In this document: one piece after another, positions 3,092-62,476 of the stretch
Layout of the letters: each line of letters begins with the position of its first letter
Position numbering within the stretch: position 1 is the stretch's first letter
From: Chiloscyllium plagiosum
Taxonomy: Eukaryota
NCBI RefSeq assembly: GCF_004010195.1
Contig: NC_057753.1
Coordinates: 3,565,514-3,629,513, forward strand
Length of the DNA stretch: 64,000 bases
Direction: 5' to 3'
Program-made: the position numbers and the translations under genes
The notes under the pieces: model-generated
Database searches by the model: none
What the model saw: only the letters and a program-made list of their open reading frames with translations
Told to the model about the DNA's origin: nothing

Positions 3092-3955
3092 CTAATCTAG
3101 CAGTGATTGCAATTCTGTCTCGAAGAGCGTATGGTCTATCTGGATGCATTGCGTACTACCTGGTGTCAATTGCAGTGGTCATGGTCACAGCTGTGATTTT
3201 AAATATGCCTGCTGGGATTTATTTGCCATCCAGTTTCCTTTTTATCACACCAGTGTGCAATTTCTGTGCTGCATTAAATATGGCAATTATTGACATCTTT
3301 GCCTGGTTAAAAGACGCTTTTACGTTTGTGGCTGTACCTTGCCAGAACCTGAAAGTAATATATTGCACCAAAAAGGCGACAGCGTGTGTGATAGGAGTAG
3401 TGTCTACTCTGTGCTGAATGATAACATTTTCATCTCGTAGAATTTGAACCAAGATATGTATTTAACAACATACCCTGTAGCATAAAGAATATATGTTATA
3501 CATCATCTGCTTGAGCTGCATATGACAGGATCTGTTCTATGTTAAGTCTGTGTTTCCCCTTCATTCTAATTTTACGACTAAACGTGCTGACTGTGAGACA
3601 CATTGCCTTGGCCAATAAAGCCCGTAGGACACTCCAGCTTCAGAACAATGGAGAGATTCAGTATGACCCAGAGATGGAGAAGCAGAAAAAGTCCATTATT
3701 GCCATCACGGGCAGTTTCACGGGATATTTTTCCTAAATATTCTCTATGTTCAAACTGTGAATATTACTTATTCCTCAGGATTCACTTTGCGTAATTCCAC
3801 ATTTTATTTGAAAAAAAAACCCGGATATATGCTTCAGCTATTGAGTTCTTGCATCAACCCACTTATATATGCTGTGATGCAGAGCAAAATTAAACATGAA
3901 TGAAGAATGGAGTGACATTTGGTTTGAACTTATTCATTAAATGTTCAAAGATTGA
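3092..3955 (+). pseudogene. GPR139-like GPCR pseudogene (psi1, paralog of gene B), exon 2 only
   Basis: Aligns to 40851-41761. A 12-nt deletion removes TM2 TDLL, a 9-nt deletion removes FDR of the DRF motif, there is a TGA at 3415-3417 and later frameshifts. SSCINPLIYAV still readable at about 3845-3880. Confidence 0.92.
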
Positions 3956-4611
3956 TAAGTGGATGGCAAAAATAATTGGTAAACAATAGGGCAGCATATA
4001 CTTGTTTTGACACATAGCTTCAAATAAGGGGATTTTCAGACATTGCCTAAAGTGTCAATTCAGAAATTCACGATGAATGTTGTATGACTATAAAAAGCCA
4101 GTTTGCTTGCAGTTAATTTCCATTCTTTAGTCCCAACATATTCAGGGTTTTTCCAGAACGCTGTTGATGCGAGCTGAATTCAAAATGCAAGTCAGTTAGG
4201 AACGATTGTTAGCAACTATTATTGCGCATTTGTTCCTGTCAGGTGACTGTTGCAAACAGGTGCAGCTATTTTTGCTCACTCCTAATGACCATCTCCAACC
4301 AGAAACATATGTACAATTCTGGCCATCTCTACGACGCCTTTGTCCAGAACTGCACAAGTCATTGAATCTAGGTCCAATATTCACAGACCACCGGAGCAGC
4401 AGCTATACCTTCGGTCGTGTTGATGAATCAAGAGTCCTGCCATCACTCTGATACTGAGCATCACGCGATATCCCTTTACATTTCAAATAATAGTAATACT
4501 CGTTTGTCATTACCCTTGTTGTCTGCTCAAATATGACTGAAACAGAGATGTAGACAAGAAAGCAGAAGTAGATTATTCTTCATATCAAGCCCACCATACC
4601 TTTCGTTTTGT

Positions 4612-4935
4612 AAGAATCCCTACAGTGTGGACGCATTCCATTTGGAACATTGAGTCAACACCTATCTTTCAAAGAGCATCCCACCCAAACTCATCGCATC
4701 CCCATGGCCAAGCCACCTAAGCCAAACAGAATTGGACACTATAGGCAATTCAGAATGGCCAAACCACCTAACATCTTTGCACTGAGGGAGTAAGCTGGAG
4801 CACCCAGAGAAAACCCACACAGACAGGGTGAGATTTTGTGAGCTCCATATCGACAGTCGCCCAAGTTTGGATTCAAACTCATGTTCCTGGTGCTGTAAAG
4901 CAGCAGTTTTATCCAGCGAGGAACCGAGACTCCAA
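4612..4935 (-). mobile_element. Degenerate HE1-like V-SINE
   Basis: Reverse complement contains the V-SINE core (gtgtgggttttctctgggtgctccagc) and a tRNA-derived head. Confidence 0.75.
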
Positions 4936-5700
4936 GCATGTTTGTGGCTGCGCATCTACCCTATTCTCTCTCTCACCACCTACCCTTTGATCCCTTTGGA
5001 TCTAACAATTATTTCTGATTCCTTCTTCAAACATTCACGGTTTTGGTGTCAACCACATTCAATAGCAAAGAATTATACAGGCCTACCAGCTCTCTGAGTG
5101 ACAAAAGTTCTCCTCACCTCAGTCCTAACCGGCGTGCTCTGTATACCTGTTGGTAATCCCTCTTTCTGGGCTCCTCAGTCATTTGGAACATCCTTCAGGA
5201 ATGTACCTTGTCTAGTCGTAGAGAGGAAGTGAGGACTGCAGATGCTGGAGATCACAGTCGAGAGTATGGTGCGGAAAAATCCAGCCAGTTAGGCAGCAAC
5301 CGAGGTGCAAGAGAATCGATGTTCGGGCATAAGGCCTTCATCAGGATTGAGGTCTCAATCCTAGAATGCTGCCTGACTGGCTTTGTTTTTCCAGCAATAC
5401 ACCGTCAACCCTGTCTAGTCATGCTTGATTTTCATTAGTTTCCATGAGATTGCACACTATCCCCGAATTCTTCTAAAAGCCAGACAGGATCCAATGCATC
5501 CAATCTCTGTTCGTACGTCAGTTCTCCAGTACTAAGAATTGTTAAACCCACCATTAAGCCAGAGCACCGTTCCTCAGATAAGGAAATCAAAACGGCACCA
5601 GCACGACAGCAGCAAGACATTTTGTTCCTGAAGTCGAATCCTTTCACTATGAAGGCCACTGTAACATTCTTCACTTTGCATCTGCTTGCTTCCATTCAGC
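4935..5700 (-). mobile_element. Old CR1 3' fragment
   Basis: Minus-strand remnants such as FIVKGFDFRNK and LTYEQRLDAL. The same fragment sits at the paralogous position near 42640-43310. Confidence 0.6.
5218..5411 (-). mobile_element. Short Penelope-type element with degenerate hammerhead and partial inverted repeat
   Basis: Target-site duplication tgtctagtc (5209-5217 and 5412-5420). Minus strand at about 5318-5344 reads CTGATGAAGGCCTTATGCCCGAACATC. Same family as 211-299. Confidence 0.65.
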
Positions 5701-7055: not shown

Positions 7056-7087
<32 letters not shown>

Positions 7088-7250: not shown

Positions 7251-7409
7251 CGTGGTTTCAAGCATTACCAATTTTCGCTGGTTCGTCTTTCTGACAAAAC
7301 AAAAATTCTCGAAAGCAATTTGGTAAATAACGCTTGAATTTCTTTTTCTGAAATTATTCCCAAATTTGAAACTGACCACAGTTTAGGCATGTTTCCCTTT
7401 TATACGGCC

Positions 7410-7935
7410 TCTGCACTGTTGTGCCAACACCAGTGTACTTGAAAGGCTAATAACCCCAGCATTGAGATACTGGCTACCCTTGATTGGCTACGATGGACTG
7501 GGCACATGGTCCGCAGGGCCAACATGAGACTCCCCAAGCAAGTGCTCTACTCCCAGCTTCCCAAATGGCAGGCGATCTCTTGGTGGAAAGAGGAAGGGCT
7601 TCAGTGATACCATCAAATCCCCATTCGCAAAATTTGGCATTTCTCCAGACAGCTCAGAATCATTCGCCTAGCACGGTCCAATTTGGAGGAGGAGCATCCG
7701 GGAAGCTGTCGAGCACCTCGACACTTGCCATGAAGAGTAAGTGTGAGCATGGTGCAAACAGTGACATGAGGGTCCTGTCACACCAATGCACACCCTTACA
7801 TTCCCGGGACCATCACTTGCCCCAAGAGTAACAGCAACTGCGGTAGCTGCATCGGTTTGGAGAGACATCTCCATACTTACCCTAAGACTGGAAGACAGTC
7901 AGCCTTGTCTGCAGGTGACTTCCGATGAAGATGAC
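7410..7935 (+). mobile_element. RTE-clade LINE 3' fragment
   Basis: Translates as SIEIL..LRWTGHMVR...RLPKQVLYSQL..GRRS.GG.RK.FSDTIK, the C-terminal signature of RTE ORFs. Confidence 0.75.
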
Positions 7936-20211: not shown

Positions 20212-21128
20212 CTATTTGCAAAAATGAAATACTTTGACAAAGTATCTCAGGATGTATCTAACCCCATTCGTTAACTCTTCTCTGAATTTTCTTTGTGTTC
20301 CAGCGTAAATAAAAGGATTGATGCAAGAGCTCAATAATTGTAACATATACCCACATTGCTGGAGAATGAATATAGAATTGCGATTACCTGAACCTGAGGA
20401 ATACGTTGTGTTTGCAATTCGGACATAAAGCATCGTCACAAAAGATAATAAATACAATACAATGAAGCTAGCTGAGATCGCAATTAGCAAAACAATAGAC
20501 TTTCTCCGCTTTTCCATCTCTGGGTCAATCAGATTCGCTCCATTTCTCTTGGTCCAAAGTCTCCTACGTGCTTGATTGGTCACTCGAATGTGTTTGACAG
20601 TCAGAGCATTGAGCAGCAAAATCAGAATGAATGGGAGGAAAGGGGTTAATATGGAACGTATCCAGTCATAAGCGATCCATGCTGGAAAGGTATAAATTAT
20701 ATCTTTTATGTTGCAGAACCAAGGTATATTGTCCACTATATATCTAGGTTCCAATTCAAAGTAGACGAAAATATTTTTTACGCAGCTGAGCATACACACG
20801 GTTCCTATGATGCGTGATGCCATTTTCTTGGTGCAATATTTTATTTTCAGTTTCTGACAGGAAATAGATATAAATCGATCAACAGTAAAAACTACCGTTA
20901 ACCAGGCAGAACTGTCAATTGCTGCGATATTTAAGGCAGAACGAACACTGCACACTGGTGTGATAGACAGGAAACTGGATGAGAAATAAATCCCAGCAAT
21001 CCGGTTTAATATTACAACTGTTATCATAACCAGAAGATCTGTCACAGCCATGGAAACCAGGTAATATGTGATACACCCAGTGAGACCACTTCTGCTTCGA
21101 GACAAAATCACGATCGCAGCAACGTTAG
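20212..21128 (-). CDS. GPR139/GPR142-like class A GPCR gene A, exon 2 (TM1 end to C-terminus)
   Basis: Acceptor tcattattacAG|CT at 21130-21129. Open frame ANVAAIVIL..YYLVSMAVTDLL..PVCS..TVDRFISI..PWFC..PFLPFILILLLN..SCINPFIYAG, ending at TAG 20214-20212. Spliced product 328 aa. Confidence 0.93.
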
Positions 21129-24576: not shown

Positions 24577-24646
24577 CTGGAACTCCGATCACTGCAACTA
24601 CGGGATAGTAAATAGTAAATAACAGGCCTGATGGCACTTGGTGCAT
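24577..24646 (-). CDS. GPCR gene A, exon 1 (70 nt): MHQVPSGLLFTIYYPVVAVIGVP+G
   Basis: aaaATG at 24646, 23 codons + G, donor G|GTAGAA. Phase 1 joins CT of exon 2 to give GVP-ANV. Same length and phase as exon 1 of genes B and C. Confidence 0.88.
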
Positions 24647-24697
24647 TTTTATCAACGATATTCTCTGCAATGTACCATTCACGCCAGAATAGTCCTT

Positions 24698-24735
24698 CTT
24701 ATAGCATATTAAAGGCTCCTGGGACTTAAGGAGTT
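24698..24735 (-). promoter_or_regulatory. Gene A proximal promoter: conserved 23-bp motif (O/E-like site) and TATA-like box
   Basis: Minus strand AACTCCTTAAGTCCCAGGAGCCT (24735-24713), then TATAAG (24703-24698). An E-box CAGCTG lies at 24785-24790. Confidence 0.6.
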
Positions 24736-25559
24736 TGTTTGATTTTTTGCATGAATTAAAGCGATTGCCACAAACAGGTTAGTACAGCTGATGCTTGGCA
24801 GGATTTCAGGTTTGATTGAATAGAATGTTTACCGCTTCATGGGAACAAAGAATGGCTTATCATGAAACATCCAGAAACGACTGAATTATCGTAGTAATAT
24901 TGTGCACAGATATACAAACTGTCTATATACTGTGCAACGTCAAAGCAGTGGTTCTCACTGTTGACCACATTTAATAAGTAATAACATTCTTATGGAGAAT
25001 TAATCTGTTTTTCACTTCAAGTCATTTCTTTGTCGACGTAATTGCTGATTAGTTGCAACATGTTTCCAGATCTCGCTCAGACCTTTTATTCCCCAGCAGT
25101 ACAATTCCTTTGGCCCTCGATGTTAAGCCGATATTTTATTCTACTTTAAGGTAAGCCTAACCTAAATGCCCTTCATTGTACTATCTTCCATGTGCCTATC
25201 AAAGAGTCGCTTAAATATCACCAATGCATTTGACTCTCCTACCAATGCTGGCAGTGAATTGCATGCACCTCCCACTCTCTGCGTAAAGAACCTACCCCGA
25301 CATCACTCCCAAACCTTCCTCTATTCGCAATAAAGTTATGCCCCCAATGATCGATATTTTCATCATTTACAATCATTTTAATGCAAACGTGTCTGCAATT
25401 ATTGCAGATAGGTCCAGTCTAAGATAATTACATTTACCGTGTAAAGGATCTGTTCCTTAATAACATATTCGATATGGCCTTTACCTCGGGGCCTTCCTAA
25501 TGGTCAATGTGGAAAGTGCCAGCTCACCATGAACAGGTGACAACACTGTCATGTTCATG

Positions 25560-33640: not shown

Positions 33641-33839
33641 AACGACTCACCTTCAGAAACGCTTTCGAGGAAGAATGATACTTGACTAGAAACATTCATT
33701 TTATGTATCTATCCTCAGAGGCGGCCATCTGTGCTGACCTTGACGAAAACTTTGTGTTTTTATTTGAAGACTTATCACAATGAGCTGGCCCCAGTGTTTG
33801 AGGTTACATTGTGTTCTAAATTAAGTATGAAACATTGGA

Positions 33840-38442: not shown

Positions 38443-38491
38443 AACTAATTAACTCCCTGGAGCCTGCAATGCATATGTCACCCTGTATAAA
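38443..38491 (+). promoter_or_regulatory. Gene B proximal promoter: homeodomain + O/E-like motif and TATA box
   Basis: AACTAATTAACTCCCTGGAGCCT (38443-38465) and TATAAA (38486-38491). Confidence 0.65.
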
Positions 38492-38542: not shown

Positions 38543-38612
38543 ATGCATGAAATACCAAAAGGATTGGTCTTTGCAATTTACTATCCAGCCCTTGCAGCTA
38601 TCGGTCTGCCAG
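38543..38612 (+). CDS. GPCR gene B, exon 1 (70 nt): MHEIPKGLVFAIYYPALAAIGLP+G
   Basis: gaaATG at 38543, donor G|GTAAAA at 38613. Joins exon 2 to give GLP-ANL, matching the YY..L..GLPAN TM1 of GPR139-type receptors. Confidence 0.9.
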
Positions 38613-40850: not shown

Positions 40851-41761
40851 CTAATCTGGCAGTGGTTGCAATCCTGTCTCAAAGAACCTGTGGACTCTCT
40901 CGATGCATCACTTACTATTTGGTGGCAATGGCAGTAACAGATCTCCTCGTCATGGTCACAGCTGTAATTTTAAATCGGATTGTTGGGATTTATTTCCCAT
41001 CCAGTTTCCTTTCGATCACACCAGTGTGCAGTTTTCGTGCTGCATTAAATATGGCAGTTATTGACAACTCCGCCTGGTTAACCGTTGTATTTACCTTTGA
41101 TCGATTTGTGGCTATATCTTGCCAGAACCTGAAACTAAAATATTGCACTAAGAAGGTGGCAGCGTGGGTGATAGGAGTAGTGTCCACCCTCTGCTGCATG
41201 AAAAACAGTTTCTTATATTTTGAATTTGAACCTAGGTACGTAATTAACAATATACCCTGGTTTTGTAGCATAAAGGATATATATTATACATCACCTGCCT
41301 GGGCTGCATATGACTGGATCCGTTCTATTTTAAATCCGTGTCTCCCTTTCATTCTAATTTTACTACTAAACGTGCTGACCATCAGACGCATTATCTTGGC
41401 TAATAGAGCCCGTAGAAGACTCCAGCTTCAGAACAATGGAGAGAATCACTGTGACCCAGAGATGGAAAAGCGGAAAAAGTCCATTATTTTACTCTTTGCC
41501 ATCTCTGGCAGTTTCATTCTGTTGTATTTGTTATTTTTCCTGAATATTCTTTATGTTCGTGCTGCGAATATTACTTACTCCTCAGGATCCACTTTGCGTA
41601 ATTCTACATTTTACTTGGAACAAACCGGATATATGCTCCAGTTACTAAGCTCCTGCATCAACCCATTTATTTATGCTGTGACGCAGAGCAAAATTAGAGA
41701 CGAGTTAAAGCATGGAGTGAGATTTGCTTTGAACGCCTTCATTAAAATATTCAAATATTGA
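40851..41761 (+). CDS. GPR139/GPR142-like class A GPCR gene B, exon 2
   Basis: Acceptor tttcctacAG|CT at 40849-40850; 911-nt exon. YYLVAMAVTDLL, PVCS, TFDRFVAI, PWFC, PCLPFILILLLN, SCINPFIYA. Spliced product 326 aa. Confidence 0.95.
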
Positions 41762-46545: not shown

Positions 46546-46551
46546 ATAAAA

Positions 46552-47360
46552 TTTGGCCATTATTAGTAGCGTGAATATAAACCGGACTGCTGGTATTTAT
46601 CTCTCATTCAGCTTCTTATTCTTCACAACGATATGCATTCTCCGCGTTGTCCTCAGTTTTTCAGTAATAGATTGTTCTGCCTGGTTAACGGTCGCTTTCA
46701 CCTTTAATCGATTTGTGGCCCTTTGTTGCCAGAAGCTGAAACTAAAATACTGTACAGAAGTAACAACAAAGTGGGTTATAGTCTGCACACTGAGTTGTTT
46801 TGAAAATGCGATTTTATATTTTATATTTGAATCGCTGTACACAGTTAATAACGTACCCTGGTTCTGTGTTACAATATTAGCATTTAGTACCTCACAGGCC
46901 TAGGCCGCATATCATTTGATTCATTCCACTCTCGCACCCTATCTTCAATTCATTCTGATTTTACTGCTCAATGCTCTGACAGTCAGACACATTTTAGTGA
47001 CCAATCGAGCCTGCCGGAGACTCCTAATCCTGAACAATGGAGAGGATCATTGTGATCCAGAGATGAAGAATCGGAAAAAGTCCGTTATCTTACTCTTTGG
47101 CATTTCCGGTAGTTTTCTTCTGCGTTATTAGGTATTTTTGTAACCGTGCTTTATGGCCGAATTGCAGAAGTTACTTATTACTCAGCTTCTGACTATAGTA
47201 AGTTATCCAACATCCTGGGAGAATCCGGGTACATGCTTCAGTTTCTTAGTTCCTGCATCAATCCCTTTATTTATGCGGGGACCCAGAATAATTCAGGGAC
47301 GTGTTAAAGAACGGGTTAAAACATCCGTGGAGATTGCTAGTAAAACTTTTAAAGAGTTGA
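46552..47360 (+). pseudogene. GPR139-like GPCR pseudogene (psi2, paralog of gene C), 5'-truncated
   Basis: Aligns to 61660-62476. DRF>NRF, W>TAG at 46901-46903, TAG at 47129-47131, 1-nt deletion near 47290. The start of exon 2 is missing and abuts the Rex1-like fragment. Confidence 0.93.
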
Positions 47361-48286
47361 CGCTGCAGGCACATTATCTCAAAGCTTCCCATCGTTTACC
47401 CTCATTCACATATGCAGCCAAGTGCCACCAAACCGTTTTTCAGCTCAACCTCTTTCTCCGTACTCGGTTGTCTAATTTGGCCAGAAATACACCTCGTGCT
47501 GCCCCTGGGAAGAAAACAAAATCTTCTAAGACCCCGCCAAGTTCGAATTATTTGTGAGTTCAGTAGCCGCCTTTCTTCTGCCTTCTGCAAAATCTCATTT
47601 GTCTATATCTCTTACTGTGCACACAGTTATTTATGCCTTCCAAGGTAAAGCTGGCTGGTTATGCAATATATCAGCAGCCCCAACTCAACTTCATCAGACA
47701 CAGGAACTCGCTGTGATCTCTTCGTTTGCCTGGAGAGCACTTACTTAAACATGTTTTACAACAGTGAGTTCCATATTGAAGCGCTATGCTCACGCAAACG
47801 TCTTTGGAACTGAACATCAGGATTTGCTGAGGAATAAAAACGCACCAAAATACTTGATCACCACGAACTCTATTGGTAACAAAAGATTGATAATTCTGGT
47901 GTCAATGTAATTATGTCCTACTTTTGTGCTGCTCAGTGATCCAAGTTGGTAATTGAATAGAAAACAATAAGATGTTTAGCAATGTGAAGATTAATATTCC
48001 ATATTAATATGCAGCCCTAAAATGCTATTTCATATTTGCTGCTAATAATTTTCTTCTAAATCTACATTAATTTACAGAAAGTTATAGTTGAATCGTTTAT
48101 ATTTGGTTTCACATGCAATGGTAGATGGCGGGCATTTCAATTTAAATTCAAAATTTAACCCAAGTTACATCAGAATGAAATATCAGTTTGACAAAGTAAA
48201 GTATTTCACTTATCAAAACTATTGATAAAATCGTCACAGTACAACATCGTTCACGGAGTTTTGAGCAGTCCAGCAGAGTGGGATCA

Positions 48287-51200
48287 TGTTAAAGGCAATA
48301 ATAGTAGTAATGAGATACAATGGTAATCCAATTCATTTATTGTATTGGCAACAATTTATTAGTTAAATTACCGAGCAATTAACATCTGTAAACCAGATCC
48401 ATTGAGGCACTGATACTTATTCAACTGAATTTTCATTTCATCATTACAATTTAGCATTTCTTTCCACCATCGTTCGAGTGTACATATAGACTTATTGTAC
48501 AATTTTCTTTGAAAGTTGCCAGTAATACGTATGAATGTATTATTGCTTGAGTAATTTGAACTATTGAACATTTCCCATCTGCACTTAATGACTGATTTCA
48601 TTTTTGAGGAATACTTTGTTTTCGAAATGTTCAAAGGTAAATGTTCAAGTGTTCAACCATAGACTGGGACTGCCATCGTGTTAAAGGTTTGGTTGGAAAG
48701 GAATTTGTTAAGTGCGTACCAGAAAATTTTCTGATTCAGTATGTGGATGTACCGACCAGACAAGATGCAAAATCTGACCTACTGTTGGGAAATAAGGCAG
48801 GGCAGGTGACTGAGGTGTCAGTGGGGGAGCACTTTGGGGCCAGCGAACATAATCCTATTAGATTTAAAATAGTGATGGAAAAGAATAGACCAGATCTAAA
48901 AGTTGAAGTTCTAAATTGGAGAAAGGCCAGTTTTGACGGTATTAGGCAAGAACTTTCGAAAGCTGATTTGAGCTAGACGTTCGCACATAAAGGTATTGCT
49001 GGAAAATTGGAAGCCTTCAGAAATGAGATGACGAGAATCCAGAATAGGTATATTCCTGTCAGGGTGAAAGGAAAGTCTGGTAGGTATAGTTAATGCTGGA
49101 TGACTAAAGAAATTGAGGGTTTGTGCGTGGGAAATCATGTCTCACAAACTTGATTGAGAGTTTTGAGGAAGTAACAAAGAGAATTGATGAGGGCAGAGCG
49201 GTAGATGTGATCTATATAGACTTCACTAAGGCGTTCGGCAAGGTTCCCCATGGGCGACTGATTAGAAAGGTTCGATCTCATGAAATACAGGGAGAACTTG
49301 CCATTTGGATATAGAACTGGCTCAAAGGTAAAAGACAGAGGTTGGCAGTGGAGGATTGTTTTTCAAACTGGAGGCCTGTGAAGAGTAGAATGCCACAAGG
49401 ATCGGTGCTGCGACCTTTACCTTTTGTCATTTGCATAAATGATTTGGATGCGAGCATACAAAGTACAGTCAGTAAGTTTTCAGATGACACCAAAATTGGA
49501 GATGTAGTGGACAGCGAAGAGGGTCACCGCAGATTGCAACAGGATCTTGACCAGATGGACCAATGGGCTGAGAAGTGGCAGATGGAGTTTAATTCAGATA
49601 AATGCGAGGTACTGCGTTATGGGAAGGCAAATCTTAGTAGGACTTATACACTTAATGGTAAGGTCGTAGGCAGTGTTGCTGAACAAAGACACCTTGAAGT
49701 ATAGGTTCATAGCCCCTTGAATGTGGAGTCGGAGGTAGATAGAATAGTGAAGAAGGCGTTTGGTATGCTTTCTTTTATTGGTCAGAGTATTGAGTACAGG
49801 AGTTGGGAGGTTATGTTGGAGCTGCCCAGGACATTGGTTAGGCCATTGTTGGAATATTGCTTGCAATTCTGATCTCTTTCCTATCGGAAAGTTGTGAAAC
49901 TTGAAAGCGTTCAGAAAAGATTTACAAGGCTGTTGCCAGTGTTGGAAGATTTGAGCTATAGGGAGACGCTGAACAGGCTGGGGCTGTTTCTCTGGAGCGT
50001 CGAAGGCTGAGGGGTGACCTTATAGATGTTTACAAAATTATGACTGTCATGGATAGGGTAAGTAGGCAAAGTCTTTTCCCTGGGGTCGAGGAGTCCAGAA
50101 TTAGAGGTTATAGGTTTAGTGTAAGAGGAGAAAGATATAAAAGAGACCTAAGGTGCAGCTTTTTCACACAGAGGGCGGTGCGTGTGTGGAATGAGCTGCC
50201 AGAGGAAGTGGTGGAGGCTGGTAAAATTGCAACATTTAAGAGGCATCTGGATGGGTATATGAATAGCAAGGGTTTTGGAGGGATATGGGCCGGGTGCTGG
50301 CAGGTGGGACTAGATTGGGTTGGGATATCTGGTCGGCATGGATGGGTTGGGCCGAAGGGCCTGTTTCCGTGCTGTACATCTCTATGACTATGACATCATA
50401 TTACCCCATTATTTCTCAATAATGACTCTATGGCTCTATGACTCAAAAATAACAATATTCTCTTTGTCCTTGAAGTGATTATTCGAATTTGCCACCAATT
50501 CACAGAACACTGTCGTTTTTCTTACAGTCATTGCTGCTTGCACTCTCATTCTACATTGATTGTTCCTGATGGCTCTGATACGATGATTGCTGATGTGGGA
50601 TTTCCACCTGACTCCAAAACTGGCACTGTCTTAAACGGTTTCTAGTTTTGTTGTTCTCCCAATATTAAATGAATCTCTGCACATATTGGCATCTGTTTAT
50701 TTCATTTCAAAGGTGTAATTTTGCAAGTGCAAATGAGAAAAAAAGCATTACTTACCCTGACAGTGCAATGAACCACTGATGAAATGCTACACTGCATGAA
50801 GGTCTTTCTCTGAACAAATTCTCATCACCAGACAGCTCCAATGGTTTATATCGACAGCAGAAATGACAGGTGATTCTCACATGATCAGTTCTGTCATTGA
50901 ATCCATCCCAAAATTAACTTCGTGAAGTTGGTGAGTTGCATCTTGCCAGTTTGTTTCCAATGTAATATTCAAAAGTTGAATGTCTGCTTTTCCTGCAGTG
51001 AAAACAATTACATGGCTTCATTGAAACAGCCACTTTTGATCCAAAATTAGACTTATCGAAAATTGATCCAAAATTAGTCAGGAGGATTGTTTGAAATTAT
51101 TATTATGCATTTGTTCCTATTTGGAGACTGTTGCAAACAACTACAGCCATTGTTGCCCATTCCTAATTTCTTTCACCAATCAGAAACATGGTCACAATTC

Positions 51201-51420: not shown

Positions 51421-52434
51421 GCGTCAATTCAGATCCGCTATCGAAACCTGTCGCCTATTTTATAAGGGACTGTAACCCTTTGCTCCGTAACGATTCATGT
51501 ATCTCCCTAGATTCCTCTTAACTGATGCTATTGTGCCCGCCTCTACCACCACCCTTGCGTAAAGAACTTTCCATGCATATCCCCTCTAAGATTTCCCCTC
51601 TTACTTTGAACTCATGGCCCATACTCTGGGAAAAGCTCCTTGCTGTCCACCCTGTTTTTAACTCTCATGATTTCGTAGACCTCAAACAGGTTCCCCCCTC
51701 AACCTCCTTTCTAATGCAAATAATCTTAGTCTATTCAAACTCCCTCCTTAGGTAGCGCCTCCATACCAGGCAGCATCCTGGTGAACCTACTCTGCACCAT
51801 TTCCAAAGTATCCACATCGTTTTAGAAATGTGGAAACCAGAACTCGACAAATATTCGAAATGTGACCGAACGAAAGTCTTATACAAATGCATCATGACCT
51901 GCCAACTCTGGTACCCAACACCCTATCCGATTAAGGAAAGCATGCCAAAAGCCTTCTTGACCACTCTATTGACATGTGTGGCCACCTTCAGACAACAATG
52001 TATATAAATACGCAGATTTCTCTGTTCATCAGTTTTCTCCAAGGCATTTAAATTTACGGTATAGTTCTCTTTTTAATTGGACCTTTCAAAATGCATGAAC
52101 TCATGTTTGCCCAGAGTGTACGTCATCTGCTATTTTTCTGCCCAACTGTCCAATCTATTTATATTCTACTGTATTCTCTGACAGTCCTCTTCACTATCTA
52201 CTACTCCATCAATCTTAGTGTCATTTGAAACGTTGTTTATCAGACCACCTATACTTTCCTCCAGTCATTTATGTATATCATAAACAACAGTTGTCCCAGT
52301 ACTGATCCCTGTGGTAAACCACTGGTGACAGGTCTCCATTTTGAGAAACTCCCTTCCAGTGCTATTCTCAGTCTCCTGTTGCCCAGCCAGTCCTTTATCC
52401 ACTTCGCTTACACATCCTGATCCCCATGCGACCC

Positions 52435-53001
52435 CAGCAGATAAAGGCAGAATGATGGTCATCCTAGATAAATCAGATTACATCCAAAAAGCACAACAAC
52501 TACTTGCAGATATCAACACCTACCAAATGAAGGAATTTGACCCCACACCACAACTCACCAATAGGATAAATAACACACTAAGGAATCTACATAAAAAAGG
52601 ACAGATAACCAGAGCTGACCTACAAAGAATGAAACCGGAAAGCAACAACACCCCCAGATTCTATGGATTACCTAAAGTACACAAACCAGACATCCCACTC
52701 AGACGCATAGTATCACTACCAGGGACACCATCATACAAACTGGCCAAAGAACTACAACAGAAACTGAAACACCTGGTCAGCGGATCCAAACACTCTATAC
52801 AATCAACACAGGAATTCTTGGAAATCATCAGAAATATACACATAGACAAAGAAGAAACCAGGACGCTGAACCTATCAACAAAGACGGCACACTTAAACTA
52901 CTGGACTTGTGCCTCACAACACACTTCACATTCAACAACCAGATATACGAACAAATCAACGGAACACCCATGGGATCACCAATCTCGAGACTCATAGCAG
53001 A
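52435..53001 (+). mobile_element. Penelope-like element reverse transcriptase fragment
   Basis: PADKGRMMVILDKSDY..PRFYGLPKVHKPDIPLRRIVS..HFTFNNQIYEQINGTPMGSPIS, diagnostic PLE RT motifs. Internal deletion near 52860; runs into the gap. Confidence 0.92.
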
Positions 53002-53564
53002 NNNNNNNNNNNNNNNNNNNNNNNNNNNNNNNNNNNNNNNNNNNNNNNNNNNNNNNNNNNNNNNNNNNNNNNNNNNNNNNNNNNNNNNNNNNNNNNNNNN
53101 NNNNNNNNNNNNNNNNNNNNNNNNNNNNNNNNNNNNNNNNNNNNNNNNNNNNNNNNNNNNNNNNNNNNNNNNNNNNNNNNNNNNNNNNNNNNNNNNNNNN
53201 NNNNNNNNNNNNNNNNNNNNNNNNNNNNNNNNNNNNNNNNNNNNNNNNNNNNNNNNNNNNNNNNNNNNNNNNNNNNNNNNNNNNNNNNNNNNNNNNNNNN
53301 NNNNNNNNNNNNNNNNNNNNNNNNNNNNNNNNNNNNNNNNNNNNNNNNNNNNNNNNNNNNNNNNNNNNNNNNNNNNNNNNNNNNNNNNNNNNNNNNNNNN
53401 NNNNNNNNNNNNNNNNNNNNNNNNNNNNNNNNNNNNNNNNNNNNNNNNNNNNNNNNNNNNNNNNNNNNNNNNNNNNNNNNNNNNNNNNNNNNNNNNNNNN
53501 NNNNNNNNNNNNNNNNNNNNNNNNNNNNNNNNNNNNNNNNNNNNNNNNNNNNNNNNNNNNNNNN
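53002..53564. other. Assembly gap (563 N)
   Basis: Run of N. Confidence 1.
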
Positions 53565-53649
53565 GCAGGATTTGCTTCTTCTCTGTCCACTTGTCTGTGC
53601 CTGGTTATCCAGCGATATGAAGTGTGCGGGGACAAGCAGTGGACTTGAT

Positions 53650-53945
53650 GTTGTTGTTCTGTTCGCCGAGCTGGAAGTTTTTGTTGGAAACGTTTCGTCC
53701 CCTGGCTAGGCGGCATCATCAGTGCTTGGGAGCCTCCTGCGAAGCGCTTCTTTGATGGGAAGCGGCAGGGACAGACCACTATAAACACCGGAGGAAACAT
53801 CAAAGAAGCGCTTCGCAGGAGGCTCCCAAGCACTGATGATGTCGCCTAGCCAGGGGACGAAATGTTTGCAACAAAAACTTCCAGCTCGGCGAACAGAACC
53901 ACAACAACGAGCACCCGAGCTACAAATCTTCGCACAAACGTTGAA
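53650..53945. mobile_element. Penelope inverted terminal repeat (pLTR palindrome) with two hammerhead motifs
   Basis: Arms at about 53650-53757 and 53798-53905 are reverse complements around a 40-nt spacer. Hammerheads at 53830-53869 (+) and 53686-53725 (-). Confidence 0.85.
53830..53869 (+). ncRNA. Minimal type I hammerhead ribozyme motif
   Basis: GCA-CTGATGA-T-GTCGCCT-agcc-AGGGGAC-GAAA-TG-TT-TGC: core CUGAUGA/GAAA, stem II and a 3-bp stem I. Confidence 0.65.
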
Positions 53946-56900
53946 CCTCAACTTCTCCAACAGCCCACCATGGGGAACCTTATCAAACGGCTTATTGAAG
54001 TCTATGTCTATGACATCTACAGCCGCTCCCTCATCAATCAACTTTGTCACTTCCTTAAAGAATTCTATTAAGTTGGTAAGACATGACCTTTCCTGGACAA
54101 AATCATGCTGCCTATCACTGATAAGCCCATTTTCTTCGAAATTGAAATAAATCCTATAACTCAGTACCTTCTCCAGCAACTTCCCTACCACTGATGACAG
54201 GCTCACCGACCTATAAATGCCTGCATTATCCCCGCTACACTTCTTAAGCAAAGGTCAACGTTAGCAGTCCTCTGCGACCTTACCCGTGTTCAAGGATGAT
54301 GCAAAGATATCTGATAAGATTCCAGCTATTTCGTCTCTCGATTCCCTCAGTAACCTGGGAGATCCCATCCAGACCTGGGGACTTGTAAACCTTAATGTGT
54401 TTTTGAATGCCCAACACTTCCTCTCTCCTTCTTCCCCCTTGTCCTATAGTAATCAAATCTCTATCCCTTGCCTCAGCTACCGCCATTTCCCTCGCCTCAG
54501 TCAATAATAATGCGAAGTACTCATTAAGAATCTCACTCCACGCAGAACTTGCCTCTTATCCTTGAGTAGGCCAACCCTTTTTCTCGTTACCCTCTTGCTC
54601 TTTATATACGAATAAAAGGCTTTCGGATTTTCCTTAACGTTGTTTGCTAAAGATATCTCATGCCCCCATTCAGCCCTCTCAATTCCTCGTTTCAGACTCG
54701 TCCTCCATTCCCAATATTCTTCCAAAGCTTCGTCTTCTTCAGTCGTCCAGACTTATATATGCATCCTTTTTCCTCTTAGCTCATCTCACAATTGCACCAT
54801 TTTTGAACATGGTTCCCAAACCTTATCATTTCTGTGCTTCATTTTCACAGGAACATGTCTCACCTGCACTATAACCAACCTCTCTTTAATAGGCATCCAC
54901 AGTTCAAATGTGGATTTACCTTCAACCAGCTGATCCCAATCCACATTCCCCAGCTCCTTGTAAATTTTGGTATAGTTTGCCTCCCCCCAATTTAGCAATC
55001 TTCCTTTAGCTCCCCCCCATATCTTTGTCCATGATTATTCTCAAACTTACGGAATTGTCATCACTACTCCTAAAATAATCCCCTACGGAAGCTTCAACCA
55101 TCTGGCTGGGCTCATTATCCAATCTCAGGTCCAGAATGCCCCCTTCCCGAGTTGAGCTACTTGCGTACTTCTCTATAAAACCCTCCTAGACGTTCAACAC
55201 GGTGTCAATAAAATTCATCATCCGCCACCTTGGAGTTAATGACGGGCAACATATCATTTTACAATGGTAAATTAGCATTTCAATTTCGTAATCAGGACAT
55301 ATTACGAAATTTCTTTGAAGGGGAACTGCCACAGCCAGTCATTGACCTTGCATTTCCATGTTCACCAACTGAGATATTGCACAGAGACCTGTTAGAAACA
55401 AATTGCAGATATACACAACTGATTGTAGAATCGGAGTGGCACTGCTCATATTGTGACAAGAAGACATCGTTTGCAAGAATTGTTTGTGCTCCTGCTATTG
55501 CCAGGTCTTCCAAGTGTCCAACAATGAATGCATCCAGGACGCAAAATTGCAAGCTACCTCCCCAAAGAAATGCATGAAGAAAATTTTAAGGTATCAGTTA
55601 TGAAAGGGCCTAGGACATGTTCCTGTGAACAGCTGGATAAGGACAGTTTACTCAGATAACTCGATGAAGCACAGTCAAATAAAAAGCTGTGCAGCTTATA
55701 TCAGCAAAGATAACACATGTCCCTAGTGCCAATGGAACACCAGCATGTGCATGATATTCCTAATGGGTTAAACCAGGTGGAAAATGCCGGTCAGATATTT
55801 ATACAATTGCAAAGTGAACTAATGCAATGCCATACATGCTTCTACTTGCTGCTGTAGTCCTTCTGCTAAATTCAGACATGGCTATGGCACATGAGCTGAC
55901 CCATGGGAACAGATTTATACGAAGGATAATGTAGTGGTATTAAAGCATAAATTGATCAATTAAAACATAAATTGAGGAAAGCAGCGATCAATGAATATTA
56001 TTTGATTTGTGTACAAGACAACATGTTAAGAGTAATTGAATGGCGTTGCTTGTATCTGGAAGTGCAGAGTATTTAAATGTCTTCGGTGAAAATAGAAGTA
56101 TGAGGACCAGGAATGCAGAACTGTCCATGGATAACTGAAGAGCCAGGCGATTAGGTGGGACTGGAGTGAACTGAACGTTCGTGCAATGCACGTAAAGCAG
56201 ACTGAAGTCCACGCCAAATCAGACATTACATAACCTGATCTGAATGAAGTATAAAGTGCTATGCTGATCTAACGACACACGTTATGACTTAATATGCGCT
56301 GAACTATTCCTGTTCAAATAATCATATAACACAGAACACAGATTGTTTATGACATTTAAATTGGAGAATACTTATTAAATTGCGAAAATTCTCAGCAGAT
56401 CGGGCAACGTATGGCAATAGATCCTGCCGATTCTGAACGTTAATTCTGTCAATTTTTATTGTTATTTAAAACTGAACTTGACCTTGTTGCTGTGTTGCTT
56501 CCCACACTGACAGTAAACCTTTGTGGTGAATGTATGTATACTGAAAGTTATCAATGTATTTATTCAACATGTTCATGCTCAATTGTAAATTATACGATGA
56601 TCATTGAGTTCACCATTGAGGAGCTTAAAGTAATAGTTCTTTGATTCACGTTGACTTTCACGATATATCTCCTATTTTAATTTAATATTTTGCTAGCGGC
56701 GAGCAAAAGAAAAGCGTGACTAGCATTTTATTGTCTCCATTTGTTTCAATATTGGAAAAAATACAGTTGCAAAAATATCCATTTGATCAGAATACCTGGG
56801 TAAGAACAGTAACAACTTTACAACTTTGCGCTACTTTTCCATCTTTCAATTTGTGCCATCGATGTAACAGGCAAAATCAAATAATTTTCTCCATGGAGAA

Positions 56901-58140
56901 AGACACGAAGAGTAAACGTGACCATCTCTGAACATAGTGACTGACATGCTCAGAACTTTGAACAGAAATGTATTCATTACCAAAAGGCTTAGCGTTTGTC
57001 ATTTACTAAACCTTTCTTTCAACAACAGGGCTTCCAGATATAGATTCTGAGCCAATTGCTAGTTATGGGATTCTTTGCATACCTCTCATTTTCGCATTTT
57101 CATCTAGTACTTCTCCAAGGTGGTGATGTTATTTCCACATCTCAGTGGATCACTTGTCTATTCATAGAACAAACTTTTTTTTAACCTTTAACAGGTATAT
57201 CCGTCACCCACGACGAGCATCACTTCTTCCAACTATCCATTTCAACCCTCCATTTATTCTTTACTACCATAATGAGCCTTCATTACTGTTGCATGTTTCA
57301 CCTTCCTCATAGTGCCATTAAAATGTTTTGAGATACAGTGTGTTCACATTCAAGGTATACGTATCAATAGGCTAACATGCAAACACCATGGTACTCCTGT
57401 CTTAGAATGGCACTATAAACAACAATGTTTTGACTCAGAAGTGACAGGGATACCTTTCAAGCCTGGAAACGCTACGTGCATGACTTGCTTCACACGTTAC
57501 CGTCACCATTTTGCAATACTATCAAATGATTATCTGGAGTCACGCCTCTCTTAAAGTCCATGCAGACCAATTCCTTTCCATTTTACAATTGCCCTTTTCC
57601 CATATTGCTCTCCACATGGAAAGCATTTTGTCTGTCCCGCATGAAATATAAGCTGCTCCCTCAGTGTCAAACTCTGCTCCTTACGTTTGTCAACCTCTCA
57701 GGAGTTCTTGTGATCACTCGTTTTTACTTGTTGAATAAGGGTATTGACGATTGTATTTTCTCTAACTACGTCGCCAAACTGTATATAAGCCTTGAAATTT
57801 CCTACCAGCTCTTTACTGTACGAGGTAAACTGCTGTACTCAGAGATATGTTTCTATACCAGAATGAAAAAAATTGAATAAAACAAGCAGAATGCAATGAG
57901 CAAGTGAGGTGATAATTTACAACAGTTTATATTATTCAAATAACCTCTTTTGTGCACTTATAACCTCATGTCTGGAATCATAGCATGTTTATCGTGTGGA
58001 AGCAGCTCATGTGGCCCATTGAGTCCTCACCGAACCGAACGGGAATCCTTCCCATACCCACACTCACACTTTCCCCTTCCTCCAACTCTATCTCTGCGAC
58101 CTTGCATTTCCCGTCGTCAATTCACTGAGCCTTAAAACCG

Positions 58141-58425
58141 CTAATTAGGCAGTGATTATGATACTGGCCCAGTGAATGTGAGCCATCTCCAGATATGCCG
58201 CGGTATATTGGGTCTCCATGGTTTCAACAGATCTGGGCATTTTCATAGCTGTGATAGAAATGCGTATTTTATATGTTTATCGTCCATTAACGTTTTTATC
58301 ATTCAATTCTACTGTAGTTTGGATTTTAAACTGATAAAGGCATTCATAGATTGTTCTGTCTGATGGTAGCTGTTTTCACTTTTGATGGTTCGATAGCTGC
58401 ATGCTTCCAAAACAAGAAGAAAAAG
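58141..58425 (+). pseudogene. Highly degenerate GPR139-like GPCR remnant (psi3; start of exon 2 to intracellular loop 2)
   Basis: Reads, across frameshifts, AN*AVIMILAQ..RY..YWVSMVSTDL.IFIAVI..RI..VY.P.TFLS..CSL..LI.AFIDCSV*..VAVFTFD..IAACFQN.K.K, colinear with exon 2 of genes A-C. The acceptor is ccg instead of cag. Truncated by a SINE-like head at about 58430. Confidence 0.7.
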
Positions 58426-59115: not shown

Positions 59116-59618
59116 ATGAATTTCTACATAGGTAGACCACTGTATTTTCAACTGAATTAGAAGAATTAAACAATCAAGTTTTCAGTTTATTTGGAAGAGA
59201 TCATGGGTTCATCAGAAAGTACATCGCTTCCTTTGAACTGAAAAACGGATACGAATAAAATTGGTTTCGATCAGCCAGGCAATTATGGGACGTGACTTTT
59301 CCCAGATTTGACCTCTTCGCTGGGCTGCACCGAAGCGTTATTTGGCTAACAATACATCAGCCAGAGAATGAATTTTATTGTAGTGGCAACGAACAAGGGG
59401 AATTCGCAACTTTAAGCTTTAGCATGAGAGGACCACATTATTTCAACCATGAACTGAAGACCCAGGCCGTGGACTTTGAAAAAGAAACGCAGTTAAGGCG
59501 TTTTGCAATCCCTGGACATTTCCCATTCTAGTTCCAGACCATCAAAGAATGGAGAATTGCAGCTGCACCTATCTGTTTTGTTTTGATATACATGGTAGTT
59601 GCTGTAAACGTTTCAACC

Positions 59619-59654
59619 AACTAATTAAACCCCTTGAGCCTGACTCGTATATAA
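59619..59654 (+). promoter_or_regulatory. Gene C proximal promoter: homeodomain + O/E-like motif and TATA-like box
   Basis: AACTAATTAAACCCCTTGAGCCT (59619-59641) and TATATAA (59648-59654). An E-box CAGCTG lies at 59560-59565. Confidence 0.62.
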
Positions 59655-59705
59655 CTGTGGGAAAGTACAGTGTAACAAGCAATGTGCTTAATACTTCTGA
59701 TAGAA

Positions 59706-59775
59706 ATGCACATATCACCAAAAGGCCTGTTGTTTTCCATTTATTATAATTTTCTTGCAGCTATTGGGATATCAG
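59706..59775 (+). CDS. GPCR gene C, exon 1 (70 nt): MHISPKGLLFSIYYNFLAAIGIS+G
   Basis: gaaATG at 59706, donor G|GTAAAG at 59776. Same size and phase as exon 1 of genes A and B. Confidence 0.9.
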
Positions 59776-60749
59776 GTAAAGATTTCTTATTATTTCCTAA
59801 CTCGTTGATTTGTTGAATCGACCTTCTTTGCCCATTTGCACATTGCAAATAATTCATTTCCAACTTAAAGTACTCTGTTTTTCTTTAATAGCCAGTCTCT
59901 TAAAGTTTAAGATAGCATTTTAAAAATATGCTTTATCTTCATTCCTAGTTAAGTTTCTTTCGGATGTTTCCACATTAACTTTATACGTGCACTTGATAGC
60001 TGTACTGTACCTTCTCTTCACTGAATTACAGTAATAGCCCAGCGCTGAAGGAGGGCATTCGACCAATCTTATGTGCATCCGTTCAGCAGATGCTCTCTCC
60101 CATTTTCTCCCAGTAAAGCTGCAAAATCTTCAATTCAATTTTGAATGTTGCCTTCGTCAACAACGGGGCAGCGTTTCCCAGCCCCGCGTGAACATTTTAT
60201 ACATAACTATTGCATATTGTTACTCAAATGGAAACAAATGTTCCATTCTAATTCTCTTCAGATCCTTTTAATATCATTTATGCTTATACCACTATCATCT
60301 CAATATGTGTTTTTTTTCTGTTGTGCTAAGAAAAAGGCTACTGTGAGTGAAAATTGTAAAGTTATTATGGTGTAAGTGTCAAAATGTGGCAGTCTTGTCG
60401 ATATTGCTATCGCCATATACTCATTCAGATGCAGCTTTGTAGATTGATGTCTATTCTGCTTTGGGCACTGTCACTGTGAGTGAATTAATAGAGAGACGTT
60501 CTGCAAAATGGATACATACCATGTTGTTGACTGTCTTGTTGCCTGAGATCATTGCATTTTCGAGCCAATGTTAACGTCGACCACTTCTGTTGATCTTTTT
60601 TGTTTTGGAGGGGGTCTATCACATTGTTATCATGTTGCAAGTTTGAATATATTGGATAACTGACACTGAAACTAAGAGATGACGATTGATTATTTGTAGT
60701 GTTTTAACAATTAAGCACTTCACAACAGAAGTTATTGTAGGCAGTTTTA

Positions 60750-61036
60750 AAATCAGATTCCCTAAAGTGTGGAAATAGGCCCTTGACACAACAAGTCCAC
60801 ACTAACCCTCCAAAGAGTAACTCACACAGACTCATTTCCCTCTGACTAATGCAACTAACACTGTGGGCAATATAGAATGGCCAATTCACCTGGCCTGCAC
60901 ACCTTTGACCTGTGGGAGGAAACAGGATCACCCGACGGAAACCCATGCAGACATTGGGGAACGTGCAAACTCCACACAGTGGCTCTGTGGTTAGCATTGC
61001 TGCTTCATAGTACCAGGGTCACAGGTTCAATTCCAG
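60750..61036 (-). mobile_element. HE1-like V-SINE with inverted 5' head
   Basis: Body on the minus strand at about 60750-60980; tRNA-derived head (gtggttagcattgctgc..ggttcaattccag) on the plus strand at about 60978-61036. Confidence 0.75.
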
Positions 61037-61565
61037 TAAATAAACCAATCGTTGTAAGCACTGAGTTTCTAGTAAAAGCATTAATAATGCAGTAGCGTCT
61101 GATCACTGAAGCAATTAACTCGTGCTGAACCATCATTTTCCACCAGAAAACTCGCTCTTTAAGCCTGTTTCTCCTCTATCAGATTAATTGCTGCTGCTTC
61201 TATACTCGCGACTGAAGAAGCTAGGATTACATGAATTAAGATTAGAAAACAAATATCTACCACCATCAGAAGTAATCATTAATTCTGAGGGTGAGCTGCA
61301 GCATCGAGGGTTGTGGCGTTGTTGGAGATGTTATCCAGATTAAACCATGTCACAGTTCAATAGGTTCATTTGAAATCACAAGCTTTTATATCATTAATCC
61401 TTTGTCAGGTCAAGTGGGTGAAACAAAAGCTCATCACAAGTGTTTGGCTTTCACAGGGATTTCTGAAAAATGTTAGATTTTGCCGAAATTTGGACAAATG
61501 ACTTTTTTGCTCTCCCTGTCTCGGGCATAATTCTCACTAATCCCTCTTTATTCTCTCTGTTACAG

Positions 61566-62476
61566 CTAACTTGGCAGTGATCATAATCCTATACCGAAGA
61601 AGATGTGGTCTCGCTGGATGCATCGTTTACTACGTGGTATCCATGGCGTTAGCTGATCTCTTTGTCATTATTGTTAATGTGATTATAAACCGGACTGCTG
61701 GCATTTATTTCCCATTCAGCTTCTTATTCATCACACCAATATGCAGTCTCCGCGTTGTCCTAATTTACTCGGTCGTAGATATTTCTGCCTGGTTAACGGT
61801 TGCTTTCACGTTTGATCGATTTGTGGCCATTTGTTGCCAGAAGCTGAAAATCAAATACTGCTCAGAAATAACAGCGAAGTGGGTTATAGGGGGCGTCTGC
61901 ACGTTGAGCTGTTTTAAAAATACGTTTACATATTTTATATTTGAACCATTGTACATAATTAATAACGTACCCTGGTTCTGTGTTATAAAATTAATAGTTA
62001 GTACCTCACAGGCTTGGGCCGCATATGATTTGATTCGTTCCATTCTGGTCCCCTGTCTTCCATTCATTCTGATTTTACTGCTCAATGCTCTGACAGTCAG
62101 ACATATTTTAGCGGCCAATCGAGCACGCAGAAGACTTCGTGTCCTGAGCAATGGAGAGGATCGGACTGATCCAGAGTTGGAAAAACGGAAGAAGTCCATT
62201 ATCTTACTCTTTGGCATTTCAGGCAGTTTTGTTCTGTTGTATTCAGTATATTTTGCAACAGTGCTCTATGTCCGAATTGCGAAAGTTACTTATTACTCAG
62301 TTTCTAACTCTCGCAAGTCATCCTTTATCCTGGAGGAAACCGGGTATATGCTTCAGTTTCTGAGTTCCTGCATAAATCCGTTTATTTATGCGGGGACCCA
62401 GAATAAATTCAGAGACGAGTTAAAGAATGGGTTAAGATATCCACAGAGATTGCTTGTACAACTTTTAAAGTGCTGA
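61566..62476 (+). CDS. GPR139/GPR142-like class A GPCR gene C, exon 2
   Basis: Acceptor ctctctgttacAG|CT at 61564-61565; 911-nt exon. YYVVSMALADLF, PICS, TFDRFVAI, PWFC, PCLPFILILLLN, SCINPFIYAG. Spliced product 326 aa. Confidence 0.95.

What the first reader, a model, noticed from the sequence alone, without database searches (positions are those of the whole stretch)
3092..62476. Birth-and-death cluster of GPR139-like GPCRs: candidate undescribed shark chemoreceptor family
Seen: three intact genes and four dead copies lie within about 60 kb, with clearly diverged proteins and identical exon structure. Established: in mammals GPR139 and GPR142 are single-copy receptors activated by aromatic amino acids (L-Trp, L-Phe), and cartilaginous fish have unusually small OR repertoires. 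Inference: tandem expansion, high pseudogene load, a very short N-terminus and an OR-like promoter together fit a chemosensory repertoire, possibly sensing amino acids or peptides. The expansion may already appear in automated annotation as 'GPR139-like', but I know of no established function for it.
Basis: partly seen in the sequence, partly recalled or inferred. Interest (0 to 1): 0.85.

Follow-up and report, generated by a model that had tools for sequence, protein, structure and literature searches.

The report
Thousand-copy hidden shark smell-receptor family
These genes are a small piece of a family of more than a thousand related receptor-gene copies in this shark's genome, many with a control element like the one that switches on mouse smell-receptor genes, so they are likely an overlooked set of smell receptors in animals thought to have very few.

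Summary
Three intact two-exon class A GPCR genes and three broken copies are confirmed; the claimed fourth survives only as intron DNA. The window is a small sample. One family motif matches 1,309 places in this genome (control 0), and 226 of 261 score-ranked exon-2 matches are stop-free. Relatives occur across sharks, a skate and a ray. The family is not GPR139: the shark has separate single GPR139 and GPR142 genes, the nearest bony-vertebrate relative is an orphan gene of amphibians and sturgeon, and the window's receptors keep 0 of 4 GPR139 Trp/Phe pocket residues. A homeodomain+O/E element like the mouse Lhx2/Ebf enhancer motif sits before the TATA box: 27 of 29 strict genome-wide matches precede a family first exon. 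In a young subfamily two outer loops show dN/dS 1.4-1.8; the window's own subfamily is under purifying selection (0.20). Best reading: an unrecognised olfactory receptor repertoire (0.65). Nasal expression and ligands are untested.

The parts
38445..38462 (+). Gene A promoter element: homeodomain (TAATTA) + 2 nt + O/E-like site; TATAAA at 38486-38491
   Evidence: (L122)
38543..38612 (+). Gene A exon 1 (23 codons + 1 nt, GT donor)
   Evidence: matches N-termini of annotated homologues P0001/P0002
40851..41761 (+). Gene A exon 2 (TM1-TM7 to stop); intact 326-aa receptor
59621..59638 (+). Gene B promoter element (homeodomain + O/E-like)
59706..59775 (+). Gene B exon 1
61566..62476 (+). Gene B exon 2; intact 326-aa receptor
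24716..24733 (-). Gene C promoter element: O/E-like half intact, homeodomain half altered
24577..24646 (-). Gene C exon 1
20212..21128 (-). Gene C exon 2; intact 328-aa receptor
3092..3955 (+). Dead copy 1 (A-like): exon 2 with frameshifts and stops; A-like upstream DNA at 2745-2942 but no exon 1
46550..47360 (+). Dead copy 2 (B-like): 5'-truncated exon 2 with stops and a frameshift
56968..57037 (+). Dead copy 3, exon 1 (in-frame stop, donor lost); degenerate promoter element about 80 nt upstream
58137..58400 (+). Dead copy 3, decayed start of exon 2
48250..51050 (+). Intron-only remnant of an A-like gene, split by repeat DNA; no exon found

Best explanation
The window holds three intact and three broken members of a family of over a thousand two-exon GPCR gene copies in this shark, a lineage related to but separate from GPR139, that likely serves as an olfactory receptor repertoire. 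Shown here: size, clustering, birth-and-death, separate origin, a conserved homeodomain+O/E element before the TATA box in three distant subfamilies, and raised amino-acid change in the outer loops of a young subfamily. Inferred: Lhx2- and Ebf-type factors would bind this element and switch on one or a few genes per nasal neuron. Each receptor would bind a different waterborne molecule, most plausibly peptides, through its variable outer loops and pocket. The conserved inner face would signal through the Go/TRPC2 machinery of shark microvillous neurons.
For: Size: the TM3 motif has 1,309 exact matches, control 0; two mutually exclusive TM7 motifs give 170 + 874, controls 0; 115 of 130 and 111 of 131 score-ranked matches are stop-free, and the two lists share no place by my reading. 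Turnover: in a positional sample of 40 motif loci, 12 have a clean exon 2, 22 are broken and 6 run into assembly gaps (recounted by hand from the script's 16). Range: six shark orders, Leucoraja and Hypanus. Promoter: strict pattern 29 matches vs 1 control, 27 of 29 directly 5' of a family exon 1; looser pattern 168 vs 103 control, and 3 of 3 inspected C17 hits precede exon 1 of a third subfamily. Mouse OR enhancers use such an adjacent Lhx2/Ebf motif (PMC5608512 passages and supplements 22, 27; PMC7804114 passages). Loops: young subfamily (18 sequences) dN/dS 1.79 in ECL2, 1.42 in ECL3, 0.84 in ECL1, versus 0.03-0.14 in TM3 and TM7 windows. Room in the nose: catshark neurons form an almost continuous layer, yet the presumed V2R co-receptor marks 5.9 cells/mm and the other probes 0.45-2.8 (PMC10116579 passages); that many neurons lack a known receptor is my inference.
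Against: No nasal expression was seen or testable. The window's own subfamily (23 sequences) has dN/dS 0.20, with no 10-codon window above 0.5 except the last. The dN/dS values are pairwise counts without a tree, recombination control or site-model test (searches failed). The promoter pattern was built from family promoters, so part of its specificity is shared descent. Of six divergent-clade loci whose exon 1 was found, none had the strict element (loose versions by eye in about three), and exon 1 of the large dispersed subfamily was not found. In mouse the composite motif marks enhancers, not promoters (PMC12547500), and Ebf factors also act in B cells and other neurons (recalled). The 50 most specific genes of a catshark 'brain & olfactory epithelium' library held no GPCR (PMC11979771); V2Rs were missing from that list too. 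The family is transcribed at a low level in a single-cell run of unknown tissue, with reads on both strands and in the intron. Unplaced scaffolds may hold allelic duplicates that inflate the counts.
Confidence: 0.65

Rival explanations
1. Chemosensory or somatosensory receptors outside the nose (taste buds, solitary chemosensory cells of skin and gill, ampullary organs, nociceptor-like neurons), expanded as MRGPRs did in mammals.
For: Family size, turnover and loop variability fit any environmental-sensing repertoire. Catshark OR and v2r-like genes are expressed at such sites (PMC11979771 section 13).
Against: The homeodomain+O/E pairing with fixed spacing is best known from olfactory neurons and is kept in three subfamilies.
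Confidence: 0.13
2. Innate immune or leukocyte receptors diversifying against pathogen peptides, like expanded FPR, chemokine-receptor or zebrafish NLR families.
For: Ongoing amplification with outer-loop diversification; polyadenylated reads in a single-cell run of unknown tissue; catshark or1 and or4 are spleen-specific; one annotated model is fused to zinc-finger exons (P0072).
Against: The reads are few (267 of about 13 million records, summed over many paralogues) and none came from the second run of that sample. A homeodomain site fixed beside the O/E site is not a known leukocyte signature (recalled).
Confidence: 0.1
3. Mostly neutral amplification in a large, repeat-rich genome: a few functional neuropeptide-type receptors plus many passengers copied in segmental duplications.
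For: 22 of 34 scorable loci in the positional sample are broken; the dispersed C8 copies share kilobases of intron and a common 3' boundary.
Against: At least 226 stop-free exons, dN/dS 0.20 in the window's subfamily, subfamilies shared between sharks and batoids, and a promoter island conserved amid diverged flanks.
Confidence: 0.07
4. Co-orthologues of GPR139/GPR142 that sense aromatic amino acids.
For: GPR139 is the best PDB sequence match of full-length homologue P0002 (E 1e-7) and the top fold match of a low-confidence model; shark GPR139 has the same intron position and phase.
Against: GPR139 and GPR142 exist as single genes. Gene A scores 29 bits against shark GPR139 and 112 bits against the salamander orphan. 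Pocket residues F3x33, H5x43, W6x48, N7x38 (PMC5430874 abstract) are all kept in shark GPR139 and none in A, B or C.
Confidence: 0.05

Closest known systems
GPR139 / GPR142 (class A orphans activated by L-Trp/L-Phe)
   Same: Best solved-structure match; same two-exon plan with a phase-1 intron in TM1; automatic annotations give the family this name.
   Different: Single conserved genes, present separately in this shark; about 21-25% identity to the family; pocket residues not kept in A, B, C; brain expression in mammals and zebrafish (abstracts).
Non-mammalian GPR139-like orphans ('Orphan 139-like' and 'NMOGPR' in a table of PMC5207463)
   Same: An amphibian/sturgeon gene is the nearest bony-vertebrate relative and shares the TM3-ICL2 and ICL3 signatures; two further single-copy paralogues exist in this shark (L042, L043).
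   Different: One cluster per species was listed for amphibians, against more than a thousand loci here. Which named orphan is which could not be settled (table only; Yun et al. 2015 not read).
Vertebrate olfactory receptor families (OR, TAAR, V1R/ORA, V2R/OlfC)
   Same: Large clustered repertoire, many pseudogenes, compact genes, homeodomain and O/E sites near the start.
   Different: No membership by sequence (Pfam gives only 7tm_1); separate origin from a peptide-receptor lineage; coding intron in TM1; the composite motif lies in the proximal promoter, whereas in mouse it marks enhancers.
Nematode srw chemoreceptor family
   Same: A birth-and-death expansion out of the FMRFamide/myosuppressin receptor group, proposed to sense environmental peptides (PMC2576165 passages); Atlas neighbours of the shark protein carry the Srw profile in 17-74% of members.
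   Different: Independent expansion in another phylum; the window proteins do not score on the Srw profile at E<=0.001; srw ligands are themselves speculative in that paper.

Membership tests
Class A (rhodopsin-like) GPCR | 7tm_1 profile above the curated cut-off; DRx motif; TM7 NPxxY; ECL2 cysteine | tested here: met
   66-78 bits vs cut-off 30.5; DRF, NPFIY and C83/C162 invariant or nearly so in alignment A1
GPR139/GPR142 orthologues | Closer to GPR139/142 than those are to other lineages | tested here: not met
   Shark GPR139 finds only itself and a 56% gene (GPR142 by inference) at E<=1e-22; a 100/99 branch separates family + amphibian/sturgeon gene from GPR139 (that tree held two faulty rows and no GPR142)
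GPR139/GPR142 orthologues | Trp/Phe pocket residues F3x33, H5x43, W6x48, N7x38 | tested here: not met
   A: M,R,Y,Y; B: Y,R,Y,Y; C: I,R,Y,Y; shark GPR139 4 of 4; young-subfamily L052 keeps H and W
GPR139 superclade (GPR139/142, 139-like orphans, FMRFamide/MIP-type receptors) | Shared phase-1 intron in TM1 and nearest sequence and fold neighbours | tested here: met
OR / TAAR / V1R / V2R | Match to family profiles | tested here: not met
   Pfam scan gives 7tm_1 alone; no OR, TAAR, V1R or V2R name among the 240 listed homologues
Olfactory receptor repertoire (functional class) | Large, clustered, birth-and-death family | tested here: met
Olfactory receptor repertoire (functional class) | Homeodomain and O/E sites in cis-regulatory DNA | tested here: met
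   Three subfamilies; not shown for the largest dispersed subfamily; the published weight matrix was not available to score
Olfactory receptor repertoire (functional class) | Diversifying selection at ligand-facing sites | tested here: inconclusive
   Window-averaged dN/dS above 1 in ECL2 and ECL3 of one subfamily, not in the window's; likelihood test not run
Olfactory receptor repertoire (functional class) | Sparse expression in olfactory sensory neurons | not testable with these tools
   The only raw RNA runs were of unknown tissue; the catshark tissue supplement was unreadable
Olfactory receptor repertoire (functional class) | Activation by odorants | not testable with these tools
   needs heterologous assays

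The most novel reading that the evidence does not exclude
Sharks and rays smell mainly with an independently evolved receptor family of several hundred intact genes, born from a GPR139-related peptide-receptor lineage that bony vertebrates kept as a lone orphan or lost. Each gene carries its own Greek-island-type Lhx2/Ebf element, so the published view of a tiny, V2R-only shark repertoire is wrong by an order of magnitude and olfactory gene-choice control predates the families it now serves.
Probability: 0.5. Interest if true: 0.95.

Novelty: new variant of a known kind. Interest (0 to 1): 0.87.

Why it matters
Current papers hold that cartilaginous fishes have only a few dozen olfactory receptors, mostly V2Rs, and are poor in GPCRs (PMC10116579, PMC11979771, PMC8455134), which sits oddly with their large noses. 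A family this size, hidden under the automatic label 'probable GPR139', would resolve that and add an independently evolved vertebrate olfactory receptor family. It would also show the Lhx2/Ebf element in use outside the OR/TAAR system. Whatever the tissue, it is one of the largest unstudied gene families in a vertebrate, and existing catshark tissue RNA-seq can test the claim at once.

Tried and rejected
Corrected tree with GPR142 and topology tests, and codon site models (M1a/M2a, M8a/M8): not run, the script machine was lost. The one finished tree held two faulty rows (gene A in the wrong frame, L067 a wrong ORF); B and C stand for the window. Expression: no RNA holder was listed for gene A, so the single read lay went to young-subfamily locus L052, not the window; runs X6 and X8 gave no reads, which is no test. 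Structure model of P0002: mean pLDDT 56, used only to confirm a class A fold. Retrotransposition of the dispersed C8 copies: considered because of the shared 3' boundary, set aside because they keep the acceptor and kilobases of intron; I saw no poly(A) run at the boundary in the part that printed. Exon 1 of the dispersed subfamily and of shark GPR139: not found with the patterns used. Literature: ten full-text searches found no description of the expansion. Term look-ups in PMC10620051, PMC11979771, PMC8455134 and bioRxiv 2025.06.08.657570 showed no passage on it; their supplements were closed, too large or not opened and could list it. Subscription papers, including Yun et al. 2015, are outside the library. 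Chimaera and lamprey presence was not tested. Earlier scan notes: three returned, none relevant.
Full report
What is in the window. Six-frame translation and tblastn give three long intact exons and three decayed ones. Each intact gene has a 70-nt first exon (23 codons plus one base, GT donor) 1.8-3.4 kb upstream. The proteins are 326, 326 and 328 aa, 62-70% identical over exon 2, and match only Pfam 7tm_1. The dead copies lie at 3092, 46550 and 56968/58137. A seventh unit survives only as intron DNA, so 'four dead copies' is partly right. The nearest proteins are from carpet sharks (Hemiscyllium 90%, Rhincodon 88%), nearly all auto-named 'probable GPR139'.

How big the family is. Gene A retrieved 130 scored places, all at least 60% identical and 115 without stops, from 8,121 first-look candidates. 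A divergent query retrieved 131 places, 111 without stops, none shared with the first list by my reading, with scores still flat at the cut-off. Pattern counts are whole-genome: the TM3 motif matches 1,309 places (control 0), and two mutually exclusive TM7 motifs match 170 and 874. The TM3 pattern misses genes A and C, so it undercounts; unplaced scaffolds may overcount. I fetched 40 of the first 100 listed TM3 loci, a positional sample dominated by one young subfamily. Twelve have a clean exon 2, 22 are broken and 6 hit gaps (the script flagged 16, of which three run into gaps and one is frameshifted). That ratio suggests roughly 400-500 intact genes (inference); the directly listed floor is 226 stop-free exons. 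Copies crowd contigs C37 and C43-C50 and parts of larger ones, and are scattered along C8. Members occur in six shark orders, a skate and a stingray.

It is not GPR139. A GPR139 motif matches once in the genome. That gene finds only itself and a 56%-identical gene, GPR142 by inference, at E<=1e-22. A profile search of 1.84 billion representatives, named, gave as nearest outsiders an amphibian gene, a coelacanth/teleost gene, an anchovy gene and amphioxus genes. The coelacanth and anchovy types have their own single shark counterparts. The amphibian type, also in sturgeon and listed once per species, has none: its best hits are family members at 36%. In the tree the family and the amphibian/sturgeon clade are separated from GPR139, the two other paralogues, amphioxus and invertebrates by a 100/99 branch. 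That tree had two faulty long rows and lacked GPR142, and the corrected run failed. Pairwise scores agree: gene A has 112 bits to the salamander protein and 29 to shark GPR139. The four residues needed for Trp/Phe activation (PMC5430874, abstract) are all present in shark GPR139 and all absent in A, B and C. The shared intron position and best PDB matches show common ancestry only.

The promoter. About 80-100 nt before the ATG the window's subfamily has a conserved island in otherwise diverged DNA: CTAATTR, two bases, TCCCWGGAG or a variant, then a TATA-like box about 20 nt on (recognisable by eye in the 10 fetched subfamily loci whose exon 1 was found and in A and B; half-altered in C and the dead copy). 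The strict pattern matches 29 places in 3.56 Gb against 1 for the reversed control. Twenty-three precede a window-type exon 1 and four precede exon 1 of a long-N-terminus subfamily; two are unrelated. A looser pattern gives 168 versus 103; 11 of its listed hits fall in the C17 cluster, and the three I read precede exon 1 of a third, distant subfamily. Mouse OR enhancers carry an adjacent Lhx2/Ebf motif whose spacing matters (PMC5608512 passages). Its Sfaktiria probe reads TAATTG-AT-CTCCAAGGAA (supplement). Undoing the mutations described for the J element gives TAATTG-GG-CCCCAGGTG (my reconstruction from PMC7804114), the same spacing as the shark element. The likeness is by pattern, not by a scored matrix. 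Against: the pattern was derived from family promoters; six divergent-clade loci lacked the strict form; the dispersed subfamily's promoter was not found; and in mouse the composite marks enhancers rather than promoters (PMC12547500).

Selection. Pairwise Nei-Gojobori counts give dN/dS 0.20 for 23 sequences of the window's subfamily, with no loop above 0.4, and 0.42 for 18 sequences of the young clade. In the latter, 10-codon windows reach 1.79 in ECL2, 1.42 in ECL3 and 0.84 in ECL1 against global dS, while TM3 and TM7 windows stay at 0.03-0.14. Local dS in the ECL2 and ECL3 windows is also somewhat raised (pS 0.35 and 0.33 against 0.27). No likelihood test was possible.

Expression. Reads from four runs were laid at 80% likeness on young-subfamily locus L052. 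Single-cell run X5 gave 267 of 12.96 million records, piling on the 3' UTR with poly(A) ends at 7395-7417, so some members are transcribed and polyadenylated. Reads on the opposite strand and in the intron were also present. X6, the same sample, gave none. The tissue is unknown, so this neither supports nor refutes olfaction.

Context in print. Catshark olfactory neurons are TRPC2+/Go+ and form an almost continuous layer; known receptor probes label 0.45-5.9 cells per mm, and the authors conclude the repertoire is small (PMC10116579 passages). A whale-shark paper speaks of a paucity of GPCRs in cartilaginous fishes (PMC8455134 passage). The nematode srw family is a precedent for a chemoreceptor family arising from this receptor group (PMC2576165 passages; GPR139's link to that group in PMC12208981 passages). 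Ten searches found no account of the shark expansion. The only trace is a table entry for single 'Orphan 139-like' and 'NMOGPR' genes (PMC5207463). PMC7726474 was read in passages only and gave no glomerulus count. Unread supplements could mention the family.

Verdict. Real, much larger than reported, mislabelled in databases and apparently undescribed. An olfactory role is the best-supported reading (0.65) but rests on sequence signatures; rosette RNA-seq would settle it.

Noticed in passing
L050-L069 (G000 C8): A young subfamily (about 89% nucleotide identity) is scattered along contig C8 every few hundred kb. Copies share exon 2, about 350-450 nt of 3' flank with a common boundary, and up to 6 kb of intron at about 80%; the copying mechanism is unknown.
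   Followed up: partly
L042 (C26) and L043 (C98156): Two further single-copy GPR139-like paralogues, grouping with coelacanth/teleost and anchovy genes; orphan receptors with no description found.
   Followed up: partly
L133-L136: A subfamily with long N-termini made of repeated W-N-x-T-type units (potential glycosylation sites) that still carries the promoter element.
   Followed up: partly
window 24680-24800, 59560-59570 and related loci: A CAGCTG E-box recurs about 50-70 nt upstream of the homeodomain+O/E element in many promoters.
   Followed up: no
L052:6100-6560: Opposite-strand, apparently polyadenylated and spliced reads overlap the start of exon 2 and the intron in run X5: possible antisense transcripts from family loci.
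   Followed up: no
window 40851-41761 and homologues: The window's subfamily lacks the TM6 proline and has Tyr at 6x48; the young clade has NTxIY in place of NPxxY, which suggests unusual activation mechanics.
   Followed up: no
P0072: An annotated whale-shark model joins a family receptor to C2H2 zinc-finger exons; likely a mis-joined model, but it shows the two families lie side by side.
   Followed up: no
window 27200-35400, 48640-50400, 52300-54900: Decayed LINE-like reverse-transcriptase fragments (recognised by recall from the translations) fill the gaps between genes; an assembly gap of about 560 N lies near 53000-53600.
   Followed up: no
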